Assembly: GCA_965232465.1 (NCBI GenBank)
Contig: OZ246977.1
Coordinates: 1,348,649-1,412,648 of the forward strand
Direction: 5' to 3'
Length of the DNA stretch: 64,000 bases
Source of the DNA: Alphaproteobacteria bacterium
Lineage (GTDB): Bacteria > Pseudomonadota > Alphaproteobacteria > JAQWUY01
Shown here piece after piece: positions 6,432 through 41,924 of this stretch (the stretch's first letter is position 1; each line of letters starts with the position of its first letter). A program made the translations under genes and the position numbers. The notes under the pieces were generated by a model. That model did no database searches and had not been told where the DNA came from. It saw only the letters and a program-made list of their open reading frames with translations.

Positions 6432-8393
<1,962 letters not shown>

Positions 8394-34882: not shown

Positions 34883-35815
34883 TCATATGTGGTGTGTACG
34901 AACCGCCGTTCGTAATTTAGCCGATCTTGCCCTAGGGTTTACCAAGGCTTCTGCATCTGTACAGACAATTGCCTTGTGATTTTTCACCCTAAATAAAGCG
35001 GGACTTTGCTGTAATATCGGCATATGACGATTGCCTGTGTGTTGCCCTGTGCTATCCTTAATAAAATGTTTCACAATGCGGTCTTCCAATGAATGAAACG
35101 ATACCACAGTTAACCGCCCTTGATCTGACAATAAATGTACGGATGCCTGCAATGCCCGTTGCAATTCGCCAAGTTCATCGTTTACCGCAATGCGGATACC
35201 CTGAAAAGTACGAGTAGCCGGGTCAATTTTACTCTTTTTATTGTGCACAACACTACGCACAATATCCGCCAATTGCCCCGTGGTTTTAATCGGTTTTTTT
35301 TCCCGTTGTCGCAAAATTTCTGATGCCACTTTGCCCGCCATTTTTTCTTCGCCATAGTGTTTAATAATATGTGCTAATGGTCCGTGTTCATAATTATTAA
35401 CAATATCATACGCACTGATACCAAATTGTGACATACGCATATCCAATGGTCCATCTTCTTTAAACGAAAATCCCCGATTTATTTCGTCTAATTGGGGGGA
35501 GGATACCCCCACATCCAATACAATAGCATCGACCTTATCCACCCCTACATTTTTAAGCAGATCTTGCATGTCCCCAAAACACCCATGTAACATATAAAAT
35601 CGTTGGGGGTATTGCTGTTTTAATATTTGTGCATGGGCAACTGCATCTGGGTCACGATCAATACCATATACAGTACAATCGTTGGATTCTAATATGGCAC
35701 GGCTGTATCCACCCGCCCCAAAAGTTCCATCGACAATCACATCCCCCCGCTGTACATCCAAGGTCTGCAACACTTCGCATAACATCACGGGAATATGCAC
35801 AGACTTTATATTCAT
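34883..35815 (-). CDS. rsmH: 16S rRNA (cytosine1402-N4)-methyltransferase
   Basis: SAM-dependent methyltransferase motifs (VDGTFGAGGYS); follows mraZ. Confidence 0.9.
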   Translation of the reverse strand: MNIKSVHIPVMLCEVLQTLDVQRGDVIVDGTFGAGGYSRAILESNDCTVYGIDRDPDAVAHAQILKQQYPQRFYMLHGCFGDMQDLLKNVGVDKVDAIVLDVGVSSPQLDEINRGFSFKEDGPLDMRMSQFGISAYDIVNNYEHGPLAHIIKHYGEEKMAGKVASEILRQREKKPIKTTGQLADIVRSVVHNKKSKIDPATRTFQGIRIAVNDELGELQRALQASVHLLSDQGRLTVVSFHSLEDRIVKHFIKDSTGQHTGNRHMPILQQSPALFRVKNHKAIVCTDAEALVNPRARSAKLRTAVRTHHI

Positions 35816-35820
35816 AATGG

Positions 35821-36276
35821 TTACCCCTGACTTGGTTTCTTAATTTTTAAACCAGATTTAACAAATCCTTCCCGATGCCCTTTAAACAATTTTTCGTACA
35901 AGTCAGGTTGCCATATCTGAAAATGCCAACCACTGCCAACAAACACCGCTTTATCCGAAATACCTGCAAACTGTGCCAATTCTTCGGGTAATACAAACCG
36001 CCCTGTCATGTCATAACTTATCAAACGGGCATTTGCCATAATGTAATTTAAAATATGTTCGTCTTCGGAAAACATTGGGGCATTTTCCGCCATACTGTTA
36101 ACAATAAGATCCATTAAATCCTCGCTTCCTGCCTCTAAATAATCAGTTCTGGGCGATGGAAAGGCACAAAAATCTGTTGCAGAAGTCTTTTCCAAAACAT
36201 CACGAAATGCTGAAGGCAAAGAAACTCTACCTTTTGTATCAACTTTATTCGTATATGTACCAACAAAATATTTCAC
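35821..36276 (-). CDS. mraZ: Transcriptional regulator MraZ
   Basis: 151 aa; N-terminal KVDTKGRVSLPSAFR. First gene of the dcw cluster. Confidence 0.9.
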   Translation of the reverse strand: MKYFVGTYTNKVDTKGRVSLPSAFRDVLEKTSATDFCAFPSPRTDYLEAGSEDLMDLIVNSMAENAPMFSEDEHILNYIMANARLISYDMTGRFVLPEELAQFAGISDKAVFVGSGWHFQIWQPDLYEKLFKGHREGFVKSGLKIKKPSQG

Positions 36277-36563
36277 TTAAATACACCTTTAAAAACGATA
36301 CCCTTATAAAATAATAATCATAGTATAAAATGGAAAAGTATGGTTGTCAATGGTTTTTTGTAGTATTTTATGGTAAAACATGGATATTATACACAAATAC
36401 TATGCTACACCCCTTGTTTTTAAAAGATTTCAGAGTATATAAGACAAAAAAATAATTCTTTTTTTATTTCATTAAAACAACATGATACATAAAATATCTT
36501 GCACATCCCCCTCCCTCCCATAAATTACAATCTATGGTGTTATATTATTATGGTTTTTAATAC

Positions 36564-36593
36564 TTGAAAAAAAAAAAAAATCCTCTGTATACT
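36564..36593 (+). promoter_or_regulatory. Putative sigma-70-type promoter of the adhesin gene with an A14 homopolymer in the spacer
   Basis: TTGAAA (36564-36569), an 18-bp spacer made of 11 A's plus tcctctg, then TATACT (36588-36593). The A-run spans 36567-36580. Confidence 0.4.
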
Positions 36594-36662
36594 TATATTG
36601 TGGTGCCTGTTTGGGCGGGTGCCGAATTAAACTGTAATATTAAGATATTGAGGATGAAACAC

Positions 36663-39600
36663 ATGAAAAAATCTTTATGGGCAACGGCTAGTGTTATTGT
36701 GCTGGCATATACAACACCTGTATTCACCGATGACACGGACAAAGTGGTCAATGCCACGGGGAATATGTTTATGGATAGCATAAACAGAACAGGGTTTTTT
36801 GAATGGATAAGCGGCGGGGTCGGCTATACAGATAAAACCCTAAATTGGGATATTACCGCTTTTAGCAACCTGTCGGAAACAAAAGACACGGTTACATATT
36901 TGCAAACTTCTTATAATCGTCAAAAGTCAGTGAATCGATTAAACTTGGGGTTGGGGTATCGGAAGCGTATTGATACAACTGCTACCCCATTAATTGTTGG
37001 GGTCAATGCGTTTTTTGATAGCAAGGACGGGACAAAGAATATACTTGCTTTTAAGGCATCGGACAATTTCCAACGGTTTAGTGTGGGGGCGGAACTGAAA
37101 ACCGCACGGTTTGACATGGCGGCAAACCTATATCGTCGCATTGGCAATACCATTATCGACGATAAGAAAGTATTACAAGGCTGGGATATCACCGCTAAGG
37201 GCAATATCCCCAATTATGAACAGGTGTCTGTGGGGGTGGGGACCTATAGATTCGATGGGGTTGAGGATACAGTTGTTAGGGGCAATAAATTGATTGCCGA
37301 ATTTACCCCCAATGCGGTGGTAACAGTGCGGGGCACATATGACAAACCCAATGGCGAATCGGCACAGACCGATATATCGGTCGATTTTAAATTGGCATTC
37401 GACAAAAGTATACAAGACCAATTAAAATCCGCCCCTGTATCCGGTACAGATGCCGTATGGCACAAACGCTATGACAAGGTCGAACGGCACTATGATATTA
37501 AAACAGCGGAGGCACAGTCCACCCCCACATTAGGCACCGCTATCAGCAGTGCAGATTTGGCAACAAATAACATCAGTTCTGGCGATGGGACAACAGAACA
37601 ATCTGCATACGCCTTACAAAACAGCCAAAACTATGAGATACTAAACTTTGCTGGCACAATCGATAGTACTGATACTATTGAGGTCACTGTTGCAAAAGTG
37701 AGTGGCGATGGGGTGAAAGGCACGGACTTTCAGTTATACGCAAGCGATGGGACAACTGTTATTGCATTAGCGGATGTAACCGCAGATAGCAAGTTCGAAG
37801 ATAAAGCGGGGGGCAGAGAAGCCACCTTACAATTTACTTTTAGTGCGGATGGATTTAAAGACCGGGTGGTATTCGTTAAAACCAACAGCACTTTCACCGG
37901 TACTTTAACAATGGCAGATCTTGTTCTCCCCTATGCGTCTGGGACTGTAACGGTTAGCACCGCCGATATATTGGGTAAATTAACTGTATCCGGCAGCCAA
38001 ACACAAAAATCCGATTGGACAATTAAGAGCCTAACAGACACAGATAGTCATGCGAATCTTACGGTGAATGGCAAGACTCTGACTGTATCCGGGACAATCG
38101 GGTCCCCTACCACTGTAACCGCTGTATTCGAACATCCTGAGTATGCGGATCAGACCAAAACCTTCGAACTGTCCACAGGTGCCGGTACATTGGGGGGAAC
38201 GCCTACGGGGTTATCGGGTAAATGGGGCAAAACCTTTGCTGTGGATTATAAACTAAAAACTTCTGATACGGTGGGGGATGTAACAGTATCGTTTGATACA
38301 GGTGCCGATTTCAGCTTTAAGATTTTACCCCGTACTGATGGCAGTAAGGGAGGTAAGACCGCCACCACCGCAGGTATTATTGACACATCAAAAACAGCGA
38401 TTAACGCCAGTACTGGGGCAATTAATGGGGCAGCACTGACCAAATCGGGAACCTTGTTAGTGGAAATAGTCCGTGCCGCCAAAGGCGGATTGCCAGAGCT
38501 AACAGTATATGAAAATATTACGGTGAATAAACAAGTACTGGGTACAGATGTAACCACTATCCCGACCATATCGTTAAACAGTGGCGACAATAAGTGGAAA
38601 ACAGGGAATAGCAAATTTGACCTAAAATATACCAACCTGCCCGGCGGTCTGGCGGCGAATGCGTTTTCGTGGGCGGTTGCCAAAAAAACAGGGGCGGCAC
38701 CCAGTGGTACGGTCCGAATCGATAATGATGGTAAAATCAGTGGAGCAACCTCCGCTGGTACAGTGGTTATCACCTTAACCGCCAAAGGGGATAAATACAG
38801 TGGTAGTTTAACCTTAGCGGACTTTGCCATTGCCAAGCAAACAACGACAGATACGCTAACTATGGCGGATCTTGTCATATCCTATTCAGATGGGGATGGA
38901 AATAAAGTGGTAAGCACCGCAGAGATACTGGGGCAATTGTCCGTATCCGGGGGGCAAACACAAAAATCCCAATGGACACTGGTAAGCGTTGCCGACACGG
39001 ATAACAATGGCGATCTTGCTGTAACGGGTGGTGGCAAAACCCTAACCATATCCGATGAGATTAAAACCAAAACAACGGTTACCGCCACATTGTCGCATCC
39101 TGCGTATGAAAATAAGACGGCGACATTTGAATTGTCGACGGAGCCATCGAAGATAAGTACAACGGCACCCAGTGGGTCAGGTAAGTGGGGTAAATCGTAT
39201 ACTACGAATTATAATTTAAGACGTACGGTGGGGAGTGTAACATTTACTAATGCAGATTACACCTTCTCTATTGTGCCAACGGGCGATGATGGCAGTGGTA
39301 AGACACCCACCACCTCAGGTATTGTTGCCAGTGGGCAAAATGCTATAAGTAACCCCAGAACCGGGGCGATTGATGCCAGCAAATTAACCAAATCGGGTAC
39401 CTTATTGATAAAAATTGTCCGTGCGGCAAAAGGTGCTGGTGCCGCCCGAGTAGATGCGGTAACTGAATACCAAAACTTTACGGTGAGCAAACAGGACAGC
39501 ACAGACCACACCGGCTTTACTGTGTCCGCTGGGGCTATTGCATGGGCAACGGCAAGTACAGCGGTTACATATACCCTAACGAATGGTCCTGCGGGTATTG

Positions 39601-41924
39601 GCACCGCCACATACGCCTTGACAGCATCGGGGACAACGGCGGGTACGACCACAGGAGCTAGTGCTATCACCGTAGCGTCGAGCGATGGTAAGATTGGCAA
39701 AACCACTAAGAGTGGGGTGGTAAAAGTCAAGGTTACCTATGCCGCCAACGACAAATATGAAACGATGACCCGGGATGTGGATGTAACCATCAATAAGCAA
39801 GCGGGCACAGGGGCATTAACTATGGGGAACCTTGTGATACCGTATGGGGGGTCTGGGGATACAAAAGTAAGCACCGCCACCATAACAGGGAAATTGGGTG
39901 TACCCAGTGCCGGTGGTTTAGGGGCAAAATCGGATTGGACCTTAAAAAGCCTAGCGGATACGGATAGTAATTCGAATCTTACTGAAACGGATAGTGGCAA
40001 GACTTTGACCATATCCGGAGCAATCACCACCAGTACAACGGTTACCGCCACCTTCGAAAGTGATAAATACACGGATAAGTCCGCCACCTTTGAACTATCG
40101 ACTGGTGCCGGGGCAATGAGCACCGGCGATACCCGGACGGGACTATCCGGTAAATGGGGTATAGGGTTTAGCACAGCGGCGGATTATAAATTAAAACTGT
40201 CTGATAGTGTGGGCGATACGAGCGTAACCTTTACAAAAGGTGCCACCTCAACGCCGGGCGATTATACCTTCTCTATCGTTACGGGGAATGTGCCAAGTGA
40301 TGCACCGTCGGGGGCAAAAGCGACCACCACCAGTATCCTTGACACATCGAAAACGGCGATTAACGCCAACACTGGGGCTATTAATGCGGCGGCACTGGTC
40401 AAATCGGGCGACCTGTTGGTAAAAATCGTCCGCAAAGCCAAAAGCGGATTGCCCGCATTAACAGATTATGAAAATATTACCGTAACCAAACAGGATAGCA
40501 GCGACCACACCGGATTTACTGTATCGGCTGGGGCGATTACATGGAACGCCAATAGCCAAACGGTTTCGTATACAGAAAATGCCAGCAAACCTGCGGGTAT
40601 TGGCACCGCCACATATGCCTTAATAGATACAGGTACAACCGCCGGTACTGTAGCGGGCGGTAAAGGCACTATCGAAGTAACTTTGAGCAATGGTAAAATT
40701 GCAAAAACTGTCCGTAGTGGGGTGGTAAAAGTTAGGATTACCTATGCAGCCAACGATAAATACGCACAAATGACCCGAGATGTGGATGTACCCATCAATA
40801 AACAAACGGCAGCAGGGACGCTTAGTATGGCAAATCTTGTTGTACCCTATACATCCGGCAATAAAACAGTAAGCACCGCCGATATACTGGGGCAAATGAC
40901 TGCTCCAACAGGAACACAAAAAGCCGATTGGACCCTAAAAAGCCTAGCAGATACAGATAGTAATGGAAACCTTGCCATTGATGTGGGTGGAAAGAGTATA
41001 ACCATATCGGGGACAATACCCGCAGGGACAACAGTTACCGCTGTATTTGAAAGTGTCAAATATAATGATAAAACCGGTATAACCTTTGAACTATCCACAA
41101 GCAAAGGGACAATGAGTTCTGGCACCCGTACGGGATTATCGGGTAAATGGGGTACAGGCTTTACTAGTTCTACGAATGTGGATTATAAGTTAAAACTTTC
41201 TGATACAGTTGGGGATACAACAGTAACCTTTACAAAAGGTACAACAACGAATGCCGGCGATTACACCTTTACTATTTTACCCACCAGTGCTGGCAGTAAA
41301 GGGGGTAAAGACGCTACCACCTCAGGTATCGCATTAACCGGGGCAATTAACGCTAATACAGGGGCTATTGATGGGACAAAACTGACAAAATCAGGGAAAT
41401 TGTTAGTAAAAATTGTCCGTAAAGCCAAAGGGGGATTATCCGAAATCACCGATTATGAAAATATTATTGTGACGAAACAAGTACTAACACCAGCGGTTGC
41501 TTCTTCTGTAAAATCAGTCCAAGCTCCTGGAGCACTTCATACCATGACGCAAGCGGGTACGGCAAGTGATCCCTTTGCAACAGCATCACGGCAACTATAT
41601 CCGATCAGCAAATTAATATCTGTACCCAGTGGATTAGGCACACCAACTGTTACAGTAACTTGGACTGAATCGGGCAATTTGCAAACACAAGGATTAGGTG
41701 TTAGTGTCATTAACGACAGACTAGGAGCCCCAGATTTTAATATAATGAACAGCAATAAAGGGACAACAATTCCTAACGCATTACAAAGAAATATTTTTGA
41801 TTTTTTCAATAGGGACGCAACAAATACTGTACAACTTATCTTTACCTTTACCAACCCTGATACAGATAAGTACGATCTAACACAATCGGTTATTAATGTA
41901 TATATAAAAGGAAATGCCGGATAA
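36663..41924 (+). CDS. Giant surface protein, putative inverse autotransporter (intimin/invasin-type beta-barrel plus bacterial Ig-like repeats)
   Basis: Signal peptide MKKSLWATASVIVLAYTTPVFT. The N-terminal ~250 aa align by eye with the intimin beta-barrel. About 1400 aa of Big_2-like Ig modules follow in four ~1-kb tandem units, then a unique ~150-aa C-terminus. ATG 36663 has a GAGGA ribosome-binding site 10 nt upstream; ATG 36654 is an alternative. The track start at 36564 is a TTG running through the poly(A) and is rejected. Confidence 0.65.
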   Translation: MKKSLWATASVIVLAYTTPVFTDDTDKVVNATGNMFMDSINRTGFFEWISGGVGYTDKTLNWDITAFSNLSETKDTVTYLQTSYNRQKSVNRLNLGLGYRKRIDTTATPLIVGVNAFFDSKDGTKNILAFKASDNFQRFSVGAELKTARFDMAANLYRRIGNTIIDDKKVLQGWDITAKGNIPNYEQVSVGVGTYRFDGVEDTVVRGNKLIAEFTPNAVVTVRGTYDKPNGESAQTDISVDFKLAFDKSIQDQLKSAPVSGTDAVWHKRYDKVERHYDIKTAEAQSTPTLGTAISSADLATNNISSGDGTTEQSAYALQNSQNYEILNFAGTIDSTDTIEVTVAKVSGDGVKGTDFQLYASDGTTVIALADVTADSKFEDKAGGREATLQFTFSADGFKDRVVFVKTNSTFTGTLTMADLVLPYASGTVTVSTADILGKLTVSGSQTQKSDWTIKSLTDTDSHANLTVNGKTLTVSGTIGSPTTVTAVFEHPEYADQTKTFELSTGAGTLGGTPTGLSGKWGKTFAVDYKLKTSDTVGDVTVSFDTGADFSFKILPRTDGSKGGKTATTAGIIDTSKTAINASTGAINGAALTKSGTLLVEIVRAAKGGLPELTVYENITVNKQVLGTDVTTIPTISLNSGDNKWKTGNSKFDLKYTNLPGGLAANAFSWAVAKKTGAAPSGTVRIDNDGKISGATSAGTVVITLTAKGDKYSGSLTLADFAIAKQTTTDTLTMADLVISYSDGDGNKVVSTAEILGQLSVSGGQTQKSQWTLVSVADTDNNGDLAVTGGGKTLTISDEIKTKTTVTATLSHPAYENKTATFELSTEPSKISTTAPSGSGKWGKSYTTNYNLRRTVGSVTFTNADYTFSIVPTGDDGSGKTPTTSGIVASGQNAISNPRTGAIDASKLTKSGTLLIKIVRAAKGAGAARVDAVTEYQNFTVSKQDSTDHTGFTVSAGAIAWATASTAVTYTLTNGPAGIGTATYALTASGTTAGTTTGASAITVASSDGKIGKTTKSGVVKVKVTYAANDKYETMTRDVDVTINKQAGTGALTMGNLVIPYGGSGDTKVSTATITGKLGVPSAGGLGAKSDWTLKSLADTDSNSNLTETDSGKTLTISGAITTSTTVTATFESDKYTDKSATFELSTGAGAMSTGDTRTGLSGKWGIGFSTAADYKLKLSDSVGDTSVTFTKGATSTPGDYTFSIVTGNVPSDAPSGAKATTTSILDTSKTAINANTGAINAAALVKSGDLLVKIVRKAKSGLPALTDYENITVTKQDSSDHTGFTVSAGAITWNANSQTVSYTENASKPAGIGTATYALIDTGTTAGTVAGGKGTIEVTLSNGKIAKTVRSGVVKVRITYAANDKYAQMTRDVDVPINKQTAAGTLSMANLVVPYTSGNKTVSTADILGQMTAPTGTQKADWTLKSLADTDSNGNLAIDVGGKSITISGTIPAGTTVTAVFESVKYNDKTGITFELSTSKGTMSSGTRTGLSGKWGTGFTSSTNVDYKLKLSDTVGDTTVTFTKGTTTNAGDYTFTILPTSAGSKGGKDATTSGIALTGAINANTGAIDGTKLTKSGKLLVKIVRKAKGGLSEITDYENIIVTKQVLTPAVASSVKSVQAPGALHTMTQAGTASDPFATASRQLYPISKLISVPSGLGTPTVTVTWTESGNLQTQGLGVSVINDRLGAPDFNIMNSNKGTTIPNALQRNIFDFFNRDATNTVQLIFTFTNPDTDKYDLTQSVINVYIKGNAG
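37899..41480 (+). repeat. Four diverged ~0.95-1.0-kb tandem coding repeats inside the adhesin gene
   Basis: Unit starts near 37899, 38851, 39808 and 40811; each begins T/ALTMADLV-type and ends ENITV(T/N)KQ. Units 2 and 3 carry an extra ~100-aa Ig-like sub-module. Confidence 0.8.

What the first reader, a model, noticed from the sequence alone, without database searches (positions are those of the whole stretch)
36564..36593. A14 homopolymeric tract in the promoter spacer of the adhesin gene, a candidate phase-variation switch
Fourteen consecutive A's (36567-36580) lie between a TTGAAA -35-like hexamer and a TATACT -10-like hexamer, giving an 18-bp spacer. Slipped-strand mispairing would change the spacer length and so the promoter strength. 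Several pathogens phase-vary adhesins in this way through poly-A, poly-C or poly-G tracts in promoters. The tract is upstream of the start codon, so it cannot act through a frameshift.
Basis: partly seen in the sequence, partly recalled or inferred. Interest (0 to 1): 0.6.

Follow-up and report, generated by a model that had tools for sequence, protein, structure and literature searches.

The report
Poly-A tract in adhesin promoter spacer
A run of 14 A's sits inside the predicted promoter of a giant surface-adhesin gene, and the same layout recurs upstream of four related adhesin genes elsewhere, so it is probably a known kind of slippage-driven expression switch in a new host and gene family, though actual switching was not shown.

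Summary
A14 lies at 36567-36580, between TTGAAA (36564-36569) and TATACT (36588-36593), giving an 18-nt spacer. It is 69 nt upstream of the start codon of a 1753-aa inverse-autotransporter (intimin/invasin-type) protein. It is the only A/T run of 10 or more in the 64 kb.

The strongest new evidence is comparative. Four related inverse-autotransporter genes lie in other genomic contexts on metagenome contigs from related uncultured Alphaproteobacteria. All four carry the same block: CTTG, an uninterrupted A12-A16, 4-7 nt, then a TAnAAT-like hexamer. The block persists even where the flanking DNA is no longer alignable. In 149 kb of DNA from this clade, these five tracts are the only A/T runs of 10 or more. 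The nominal spacers are 15, 15, 17, 18 and 19 nt. In the paralogs, stop codons lie between the tract and the ATG, so the tract is non-coding.

The best reading is a homopolymer in the promoter spacer that sets promoter strength by slippage, as in Mycoplasma hyorhinis vlp or Neisseria opc. I could not test length heterogeneity at a single locus, the transcription start, or the effect on expression. It is a new member of a known kind and of moderate interest.

The parts
36564..36569 (+). -35-like hexamer TTGAAA (preceded by C, giving CTTGAA); its last three A's are the first three of the tract
   Evidence: CTTG is invariant in all five tract-bearing paralog promoters.
36567..36580 (+). Uninterrupted A14 homopolymer, the proposed slippage-prone element
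   Evidence: It is the only A/T run of 10 or more in the window. Paralogs carry A16, A14, A14 and A12 at the same position.
36570..36587 (+). 18-nt promoter spacer, made of 11 A's plus TCCTCTG
   Evidence: The linker after the tract differs among paralogs: TCTCTG, TCTG, TATCTG, GTACTT.
36588..36593 (+). -10-like hexamer TATACT
   Evidence: Paralogs have TATAAT, TATAAT, TACAAT and TATAAT.
36600..36662 (+). Predicted 5' UTR. The inferred start is near G36600, 7 nt after the -10. It holds a possible 5'-terminal hairpin at 36601-36625 and the Shine-Dalgarno GAGGA at 36650-36654.
   Evidence: Inference from promoter geometry. Folding of 36600-36680 gives -18.8 kcal/mol, z = -2.7. The UTR is nearly identical in L044. 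The transcription start is not mapped.
36663..41924 (+). Inverse-autotransporter (type Ve, intimin/invasin-like) adhesin gene, 1753 aa: signal peptide, beta-barrel, and four ~320-aa repeats of Ig/cadherin-like beta domains
   Evidence: PF11924, E 1e-26. (invasin barrel 4e1t, E 1.6e-3). (repeats). (AF2 pLDDT 74, Foldseek matches to tandem cadherin/Ig arrays).
36507..36541 (+). Conserved upstream block: the C-rich stretch CCCCCTCCCTCCC (36507-36519) and the motif CAATCTATGGTGTT (36528-36541, ending 22 nt before the TTG). This is a possible regulator site or UP-like region; its function is unknown.
   Evidence: Sequence comparison of the window with L001, L044 and L045.
35821..36350 (-). Divergent neighbour: mraZ (35821-36276), the first gene of the dcw cluster, with its own promoter-like site TTGACA-17-TATACT (36350..36322). 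It is not part of the switch but bounds the intergenic region.

Best explanation
The A14 tract is the variable part of the spacer of the sigma-70-type promoter (CTTGAA - 18 nt - TATACT) that drives a large inverse-autotransporter adhesin gene. Gain or loss of an A during replication (slipped-strand mispairing) changes the -35/-10 spacing by one base pair and rotates the two hexamers relative to each other. A13 would give the optimal 17 nt. The present A14 (18 nt) should be sub-optimal but active. A11 or fewer, or A16 or more, should be nearly silent. Expression would therefore switch or be graded heritably and reversibly in a fraction of cells. The organism and its relatives carry several such adhesin genes, each with its own tract, so the combination of adhesins displayed could vary from cell to cell. 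Shown here: the anatomy, the non-coding position, the recurrence and conservation of the block, and its exclusive association with these genes. Inferred: that this is the functional promoter, that the tract length varies at appreciable frequency, and that expression follows spacer length.
For: 1. The anatomy is exactly as described.
2. The same block, CTTG + uninterrupted A12-16 + 4-7 nt + a TAnAAT-like hexamer, lies upstream of four other IAT genes in different gene neighbourhoods. These are L044 (A16, spacer 19), L001 (A14, spacer 15), L045 (A14, spacer 17, scored 10/12 by the scan) and L003 (A12, spacer 15).
3. The flanks of the window versus L045 and L003 are at or below shuffled-baseline identity, yet the block persists. 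The distance from the -10 to the ATG ranges from 60 to 157 nt. So the block, not its surroundings, is what is conserved.
4. In 149 kb of DNA from this clade, the only A/T runs of 10 or more are these five. All lie on the coding strand just upstream of an IAT gene, and the next longest run is 9.
5. Nominal spacers of 15, 15, 17, 18 and 19 nt have a mean of 16.8. The organism's best non-tract promoters use 17 nt: mraZ TTGACA-17-TATACT and the tract-less IAT paralog L002 TTGACA-17-TATACT.
6. The tract is non-coding, because in-frame stops lie 3-33 nt upstream of the ATG in all four paralogs.
7. No known RNA family is present in the region.
8. There is precedent. Indels in the -35/-10 spacer switch vlp, maa2 and vmm in mycoplasmas (PMC2268961). 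A poly-C tract in the opc promoter does so in Neisseria (PMC3960869). A/T tracts next to -35 elements act as rheostats in H. pylori (PMC4081817).
Against: No data exist on tract length in reads or strains of the same locus. The source genome and its reads could not be reached, and public genome and JGI metagenome scans found no further copies. The transcription start is not mapped, and hexamer matches alone are at chance frequency in this AT-rich DNA. The comparison contigs have 1.8-4x coverage and visible frameshift errors, so their tract lengths, and therefore the 15-19 nt spread, are unreliable. Homopolymers near promoters are not always switches: the T-tract at the M. agalactiae vpma promoter was shown experimentally to play no role in phase variation (PMC2268961). 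One close paralog (L002) has no tract, and a noisy one (L050) has only A7. An 18-nt spacer is still functional, so the effect may be graded rather than ON/OFF.
Confidence: 0.6

Rival explanations
1. The tract is a static architectural element. It is a conserved, rigid A-tract that shapes the promoter, or it is the binding site of an AT-tract-binding silencer or regulator. It is kept for that reason, and slippage is rare noise rather than a used switch.
For: The block is conserved across paralogs, which argues for function but not specifically for variability. Three of five tracts are nominally A14. The vpma T-tract precedent shows that a promoter homopolymer can be non-switching (PMC2268961). 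A further conserved motif lies upstream (36507-36541), suggesting trans-acting regulation.
Against: Tract lengths differ (12, 14, 16) and the nominal spacers span 15-19 nt, so no fixed geometry is preserved. An uninterrupted run of 12-16 identical bases is intrinsically slippage-prone, so some variation in spacer length is hard to avoid. A regulator site would not need a perfectly pure homopolymer.
Confidence: 0.25
2. The tract is transcribed. The real promoter lies further upstream, and the A-run is part of the 5' leader, for example a site of RNA polymerase slippage, S1 binding or mRNA-stability control.
For: Weaker promoter-like matches (9/12) exist upstream at 36429-36456 and 36524-36551. 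The transcription start is unmapped.
Against: Those upstream matches are not conserved in the paralogs, whereas CTTG and the TAnAAT hexamer flanking the tract are. The distance from the tract to the ATG varies from about 80 to 170 nt, which does not suit a translation-linked leader element.
Confidence: 0.08
3. The tract is a coding-region frameshift switch. Translation starts at the TTG at 36564, the tract encodes a lysine run in an extended signal peptide, and slippage shifts the frame.
For: The mechanical ORF 36564..41924 begins with the TTG and reads through the tract in frame with the ATG at 36663.
Against: In L044, L001, L045 and L003 there are in-frame stops 3-33 nt upstream of the ATG, and the TTG is out of frame in three of the four. 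A GAGGA Shine-Dalgarno sits 8 nt before ATG 36663, and a canonical signal peptide starts there.
Confidence: 0.02
4. The tract is a chance or neutral product of AT-rich intergenic DNA, or an assembly artefact, with no function.
For: The intergenic DNA is AT-rich, and long-read assemblies miscall homopolymer lengths.
Against: The iid expectation is 0.002 per window. Five independent occurrences were found in independent assemblies, always at the same position relative to an IAT gene and nowhere else in 149 kb. The tract remains pure where the flanks have diverged to baseline.
Confidence: 0.03

Closest known systems
Mycoplasma hyorhinis vlp genes (poly-A tract in the -35/-10 spacer); also M. arthritidis maa2 and M. 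mycoides vmm
   Same: A homopolymeric tract lies inside the promoter spacer, and indels in the spacer turn transcription ON or OFF (PMC2268961, citing Citti and Wise 1995). It is a multigene family of surface proteins in which each gene has its own tract, allowing combinatorial expression. The proteins are built of internal repeats. That the vlp tract is specifically poly-A is from my own knowledge.
   Different: The host is a Gram-negative alphaproteobacterium, not a mollicute. The products are outer-membrane inverse autotransporters, not lipoproteins. The genes are dispersed rather than clustered, with five different neighbourhoods. Switching has not been demonstrated here.
Neisseria meningitidis opc (poly-C) and porA (poly-G) promoter tracts
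   Same: Homopolymer length in the core promoter sets the transcription level of an outer-membrane adhesin or porin (opc: PMC3960869; porA from my own knowledge).
   Different: Those tracts are G/C, which are usually more mutable per unit length. Each is a single gene rather than a paralog family.
Helicobacter pylori sabA T-tract rheostat
   Same: An A/T homopolymer at an adhesin promoter. Its length varies during infection and gives multiphasic promoter output. Other H. pylori genes with A- or T-tracts behave in the same way (PMC4081817).
   Different: [quoted passage not shown] Here the tract starts inside the -35 hexamer and fills the spacer, so it changes the -35/-10 distance itself.
Intimin/invasin-type inverse autotransporters (type Ve secretion)
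   Same: N-terminal signal peptide plus IAT beta-barrel (PF11924; weak match to the Yersinia invasin barrel 4e1t), followed by a long passenger of tandem Ig-like beta domains.
   Different: There is no LysM domain and no Pfam Big-domain match. Only 13 relatives were found among 5.8 billion clustered proteins, all from ENA metagenomes or the source genome. The literature searches found no report of SSR-controlled promoters for this protein family.

Membership tests
SSR-mediated transcriptional phase variation (homopolymer in the promoter spacer) | Uninterrupted simple-sequence repeat long enough to be slippage-prone | tested here: met
   A14 at 36567-36580. It is far outside the run-length distribution of the window, where the next longest run is 9.
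SSR-mediated transcriptional phase variation (homopolymer in the promoter spacer) | The repeat lies between the -35 and -10 elements of the promoter that actually drives the gene | tested here: inconclusive
   It is met at consensus level (TTGAAA-18-TATACT, 10/12) and supported by conservation of both hexamers in four paralogs. No transcription start is mapped, and hexamer matches alone are at chance frequency.
SSR-mediated transcriptional phase variation (homopolymer in the promoter spacer) | Repeat length is polymorphic within a population or among strains at the same locus | not testable with these tools
   No reads or second strains were available. The source genome was unreachable. The genome contigs and JGI scans were empty or gave only chance hits. 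Only between-paralog differences were seen (A12, A14, A14, A14, A16), on low-coverage contigs.
SSR-mediated transcriptional phase variation (homopolymer in the promoter spacer) | Expression level changes with repeat length, reversibly and at high frequency | not testable with these tools
   This needs reporter fusions or single-cell expression data.
SSR-mediated transcriptional phase variation (homopolymer in the promoter spacer) | The controlled gene encodes a surface-exposed, host- or environment-facing product | tested here: met
   Signal peptide, IAT_beta barrel and an Ig/cadherin-like repeat passenger.
vlp-like multigene contingency family | Several paralogous surface-protein genes, each with its own promoter tract | tested here: met
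   Five of seven clade IAT genes examined carry the tract (window, L044, L001, L045, L003). L002 has none and the noisy L050 has A7. Four paralogs come from a single sample (ERZ26168041). A second paralog, P0125, exists in the source genome.
H. pylori sabA-type rheostat | [quoted passage not shown] | tested here: not met
   The tract begins inside the -35 hexamer and extends downstream into the spacer.
Inverse autotransporter (type Ve) adhesin | N-terminal signal peptide followed by the IAT beta-barrel domain | tested here: met
   The N-terminus is MKKSLWATASVIVLAYTTPVFT. PF11924 covers aa 63-277, E 9.9e-27, 94.6 bits against a cutoff of 22.3.
Inverse autotransporter (type Ve) adhesin | C-terminal passenger of tandem Ig-like domains | tested here: met
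   There are four ~320-aa repeats. The AF2 model is all-beta with three domains per repeat, pLDDT 74. Foldseek's best hits are tandem cadherin/Ig ectodomains at E about 5e-7, with low TM-scores because of inter-domain angles. There is no Pfam Big match.
Inverse autotransporter (type Ve) adhesin | Demonstrated binding to a host or surface ligand | not testable with these tools
   'Adhesin' is an inference from the family and its architecture.

The most novel reading that the evidence does not exclude
An uncultured, probably host-associated alphaproteobacterial lineage (2.6-Mb genome, 40% GC) runs a vlp-like combinatorial surface-variation system built from dispersed giant inverse-autotransporter adhesins. 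Each gene is gated independently by a poly-A tract in its promoter spacer. As far as the literature searched here shows, this would be the first SSR-promoter-controlled inverse-autotransporter family, and an unusual case of A/T-tract contingency loci in Alphaproteobacteria.
Probability: 0.45. Interest if true: 0.55.

Novelty: new member of a known kind. Interest (0 to 1): 0.42.

Why it matters
If the tracts do switch, they mark these inverse autotransporters as contingency genes. That would imply strong, fluctuating selection on the cell surface, such as host immunity, phage or changing attachment substrates, in an alphaproteobacterial lineage known only from metagenomes. It would extend promoter-spacer homopolymer switching, best known from mycoplasmas and Neisseria, to a new secretion-system family and a new bacterial class. 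It would also provide a simple sequence signature (CTTG-An-N4-7-TATAAT upstream of IAT genes) for finding such loci. In practice, tract length in metagenome reads could serve as a culture-free readout of population heterogeneity.

Tried and rejected
1. Strain-level comparison failed. Exact-protein look-ups of the window's MraZ and RsmH, and of the 100%-identical P0005 and the same-genome paralog P0125, returned nothing.
2. A genome-contig scan with the IAT N-terminal alignment gave 54 pattern hits, none a relative.
3. A JGI metagenome DNA-pattern scan (GTTTTTAATACTTG-N8-26-TCTGTATA) gave four chance matches, none with a poly-A.
4. The orthologous position in relatives holds no adhesin upstream of mraZ in L004 or L005. 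In L043 a CRISPR array sits there. The gene is therefore lineage-specific at this site and no orthologous promoter could be compared.
5. Coding-tract hypothesis: rejected by the stop codons in the paralogs.
6. Terminator hypothesis for the T14 on the minus strand: no terminator-like site was found, and no convergent gene is present.
7. Known RNA element in the region: only a sub-threshold RT-6 match (20.5 bits against a gathering score of 46.7) at 36331-36384, away from the tract.
8. UP-element reading for a hypothetical downstream promoter (TTGGGC-18-TAATAT): rejected. The match is weak (7/12) and the tract would lie about 67-80 nt upstream of that start, outside the UP-element range. This rests on the sequence and on my own knowledge.
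9. DNA-level tandem repeats in the gene: none found.
10. The distant IAT in L051 (27% identity) has no tract, so the feature is restricted to this subfamily.

Full report
**1. Observation**

The sequence at 36564-36593 reads TTGAAAAAAAAAAAAAATCCTCTGTATACT. It contains exactly fourteen A's (36567-36580). TTGAAA is at 36564-36569 and TATACT at 36588-36593, with an 18-nt spacer. The consensus scan reports this pair at 10 of 12 matches, the best + strand candidate in the intergenic region.

The tract is a clear outlier. A and T run lengths in the window decline geometrically to 8-9, with nothing between 9 and this 14. The iid expectation for an A run of 14 or more is 0.002 per window.

The promoter-like match alone is not significant. 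Six sites were found in 35800-37000, against 5.5 +/- 1.9 in shuffles.

**2. What the tract sits in front of**

- The ORF list gives 36564..41924 starting at the TTG.
- The real start is almost certainly ATG 36663. A GAGGA lies 8 nt upstream, and the product begins MKKSLWATASVIVLAYTTPVFT, a canonical signal peptide.
- The 1753-aa protein has a Pfam IAT_beta domain (inverse autotransporter barrel) at aa 63-277, E 9.9e-27. It also matches the Yersinia invasin barrel 4e1t weakly.
- The passenger has no Pfam match. It consists of four divergent repeats of about 320 aa, starting at aa 415, 732, 1052 and 1387.
- An AlphaFold2 model of one repeat (pLDDT 74) is all-beta with three domains. Its best Foldseek matches are tandem cadherin/Ig-like ectodomains.
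- 'Adhesin' is therefore a reasonable label by architecture, though binding is untested.
- The gene is the only + strand gene in a run of - strand genes. It lies between mraZ-rsmH-ftsL-ftsI (the dcw cluster) and valS, and is more G+C-rich (0.44-0.48) than its surroundings (about 0.40).

**3. Organism**

- RsmH from the window is 100% identical to a protein on a 2.63-Mb contig (P0005), but that record could not be opened.
- The nearest named relatives are uncultured Alphaproteobacteria MAGs at 61-66% RsmH identity.
- Relatives at 71-75% identity are metagenome contigs.
- None of the relatives inspected has an adhesin next to mraZ.

**4. Comparative evidence**

This is the core of the case. The IAT N-terminal domain has very few relatives: 4, then 13 with a profile, among 5.8 billion clustered proteins. 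All come from ENA metagenome assemblies, apart from one fragment on the source genome itself. Their contigs show the following upstream regions.

| Locus | Protein identity to window | Upstream gene or context | Promoter block | Spacer |
|---|---|---|---|---|
| window | - | mraZ (divergent) | CTTG-A14-TCCTCTG-TATACT | 18 |
| L044 | 93% | Peptidase_M42 | CTTG-A16-TCTCTG-TATAAT | 19 |
| L001 | 87% | CoA-transferase | CTTG-A14-TCTG-TATAAT | 15 |
| L045 | 78% | IAT of >3657 aa | CTTG-A14-TATCTG-TACAAT | 17 |
| L003 | 46% | different sample | CTTG-A12-GTACTT-TATAAT | 15 |
| L002 | 80% | - | no tract; TTGACA-17-TATACT (11/12) | 17 |
| L050 | 45% | very noisy 2x contig | A7 only | - |
| L051 | 27% | distant IAT | no tract | - |

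Four results make this more than a resemblance.

- **Exclusive association.** In 149 kb of DNA from this clade, the only A/T runs of 10 or more are these five tracts. All are on the coding strand just upstream of an IAT gene.
- **Conservation of the block alone.** The 60-nt flanks of the window versus L045 and L003 align no better than shuffled sequence. CTTG, an uninterrupted A-run and the -10-like hexamer persist all the same. The distance from the -10 to the ATG varies from 60 to 157 nt. The block itself is what is maintained.
- **Non-coding position.** In-frame stop codons lie 3-33 nt upstream of the ATG in all four paralogs. The open frame from the TTG at 36564 in the window is therefore incidental.
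- **Spacer lengths around the optimum.** The nominal spacers (15, 15, 17, 18, 19; mean 16.8) scatter around 17 nt, the length seen in this organism's best tract-less promoters (mraZ; L002).

**5. Mechanism**

The best-supported reading is a promoter-spacer homopolymer. Slippage of the A-run changes the -35/-10 spacing in single-base steps, and with it promoter strength.

- In the window, A14 gives 18 nt, which should be sub-optimal but active.
- A13 would give 17 nt, the optimum.
- Two or three steps either way should silence the promoter.
- Several dispersed paralogs each carry their own tract, so the set of adhesins expressed could vary combinatorially.

Precedents exist.

- Spacer indels switch vlp, maa2 and vmm in mycoplasmas (PMC2268961).
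- A poly-C tract in the opc promoter does so in Neisseria (PMC3960869).
- A/T tracts next to -35 elements act as rheostats in H. pylori (PMC4081817).

There is also a caution. The T-tract at the M. agalactiae vpma promoter was shown not to switch (PMC2268961).

**6. What is not shown**

- I could not obtain reads or other strains of the same locus.
- The transcription start is unmapped.
- The comparison contigs have 1.8-4x coverage with evident frameshift errors. Their tract lengths, and so the spread of spacers, may be off by a base or two.
- The main rival therefore remains open at about 0.25: a static architectural or regulator-binding A-tract.
- Minor rivals are a transcribed leader element (0.08), a coding frameshift switch (0.02) and chance or artefact (0.03). 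argue against these.

**7. Comparison and novelty**

The mechanism would be a textbook one. What is new is the setting: inverse autotransporters, for which my literature searches found no SSR-controlled promoter, in an uncultured alphaproteobacterial lineage, organised as a dispersed multigene family reminiscent of vlp. I class it as a new member of a known kind. Interest is 0.42. Confidence in the promoter-spacer switch reading is 0.6.

Noticed in passing
L043 3906-7190 (ERZ26858540 ctg224779, 30x, 2.97-Mb contig; RsmH 71% identical to the window's): At the position where the window has the adhesin, this relative has a CRISPR array upstream of mraZ. The array has about 13 copies of the 36-nt repeat GTCGTAGAACCCCCCTGTATTGGGGCAAAGTGCGGC with ~30-nt spacers. 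Next to it is a 764/772-aa ORF with no Pfam hit that carries two RxxxxH motifs (RNYYAH near the N-terminus, RNKCLH near the C-terminus). It looks like a compact Cas13b/Cas13bt-like effector. A C15 tract (7174-7188) follows the last, degenerate repeat.
   Followed up: no
window 36507-36541: A C-rich stretch CCCCCTCCCTCCC and the motif CAATCTATGGTGTT lie upstream of the -35 element. Versions recur in L001, L044 and L045 (CAAYYTATRGTRT). The motif ends 22 nt before the TTG in three loci and 35 nt before it in L045. This may be a regulator site.
   Followed up: partly
window 36601-36625: A possible 10-bp hairpin (UGGUGCCUGU/GCGGGUGCCG, with several G-U pairs) lies at the very 5' end of the predicted mRNA. 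The region 36600-36680 folds with z = -2.7. The sequence is nearly identical in L044 but absent from L001, L045 and L003.
   Followed up: partly
window 36322-36390 (- strand) and L043 7440-7520: CCAT repeats recur at 10-bp (once 20-bp) spacing, overlapping the mraZ promoter TTGACA-17-TATACT. They are conserved in the relative L043 (CCATAAAATC CCATAAAATC CCATTGACAA CCAT...). They look like an MraZ operator array.
   Followed up: no
window 36663-41924: The adhesin gene is a compositional island (GC 0.44-0.48 against about 0.40). It is the only + strand gene between the dcw cluster and valS, and it is absent from this position in relatives. That suggests a lineage-specific insertion or a duplicated paralog.
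   Followed up: partly
L045 6347-12396 and L001 10400-12537: Paralog contigs encode very large products (>3657 aa and >3705 aa, both running off the locus). The IAT family in these organisms therefore includes giant members. Many gene calls on these 2-4x contigs are split by apparent frameshift errors.
   Followed up: no
L002 5470-5525: The tract-less paralog has AAAAAATTGACACGATAAAACAAATCTTATATACT at the homologous position. This is a consensus TTGACA-17-TATACT promoter flanked by short A-runs. It could be a 'locked' derivative of the poly-A promoter, or the ancestral form.
   Followed up: no
L050 4770-4945: Runs of G12-15 interrupt the IAT reading frame on this 2x contig. They are most likely sequencing or assembly artefacts, so the A7 seen at its promoter should not be trusted.
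   Followed up: no
window 36331-36384: A sub-threshold Rfam match to RT-6 RNA (20.5 bits against a gathering score of 46.7, E 0.047) overlaps the mraZ promoter region. It is probably chance.
   Followed up: no
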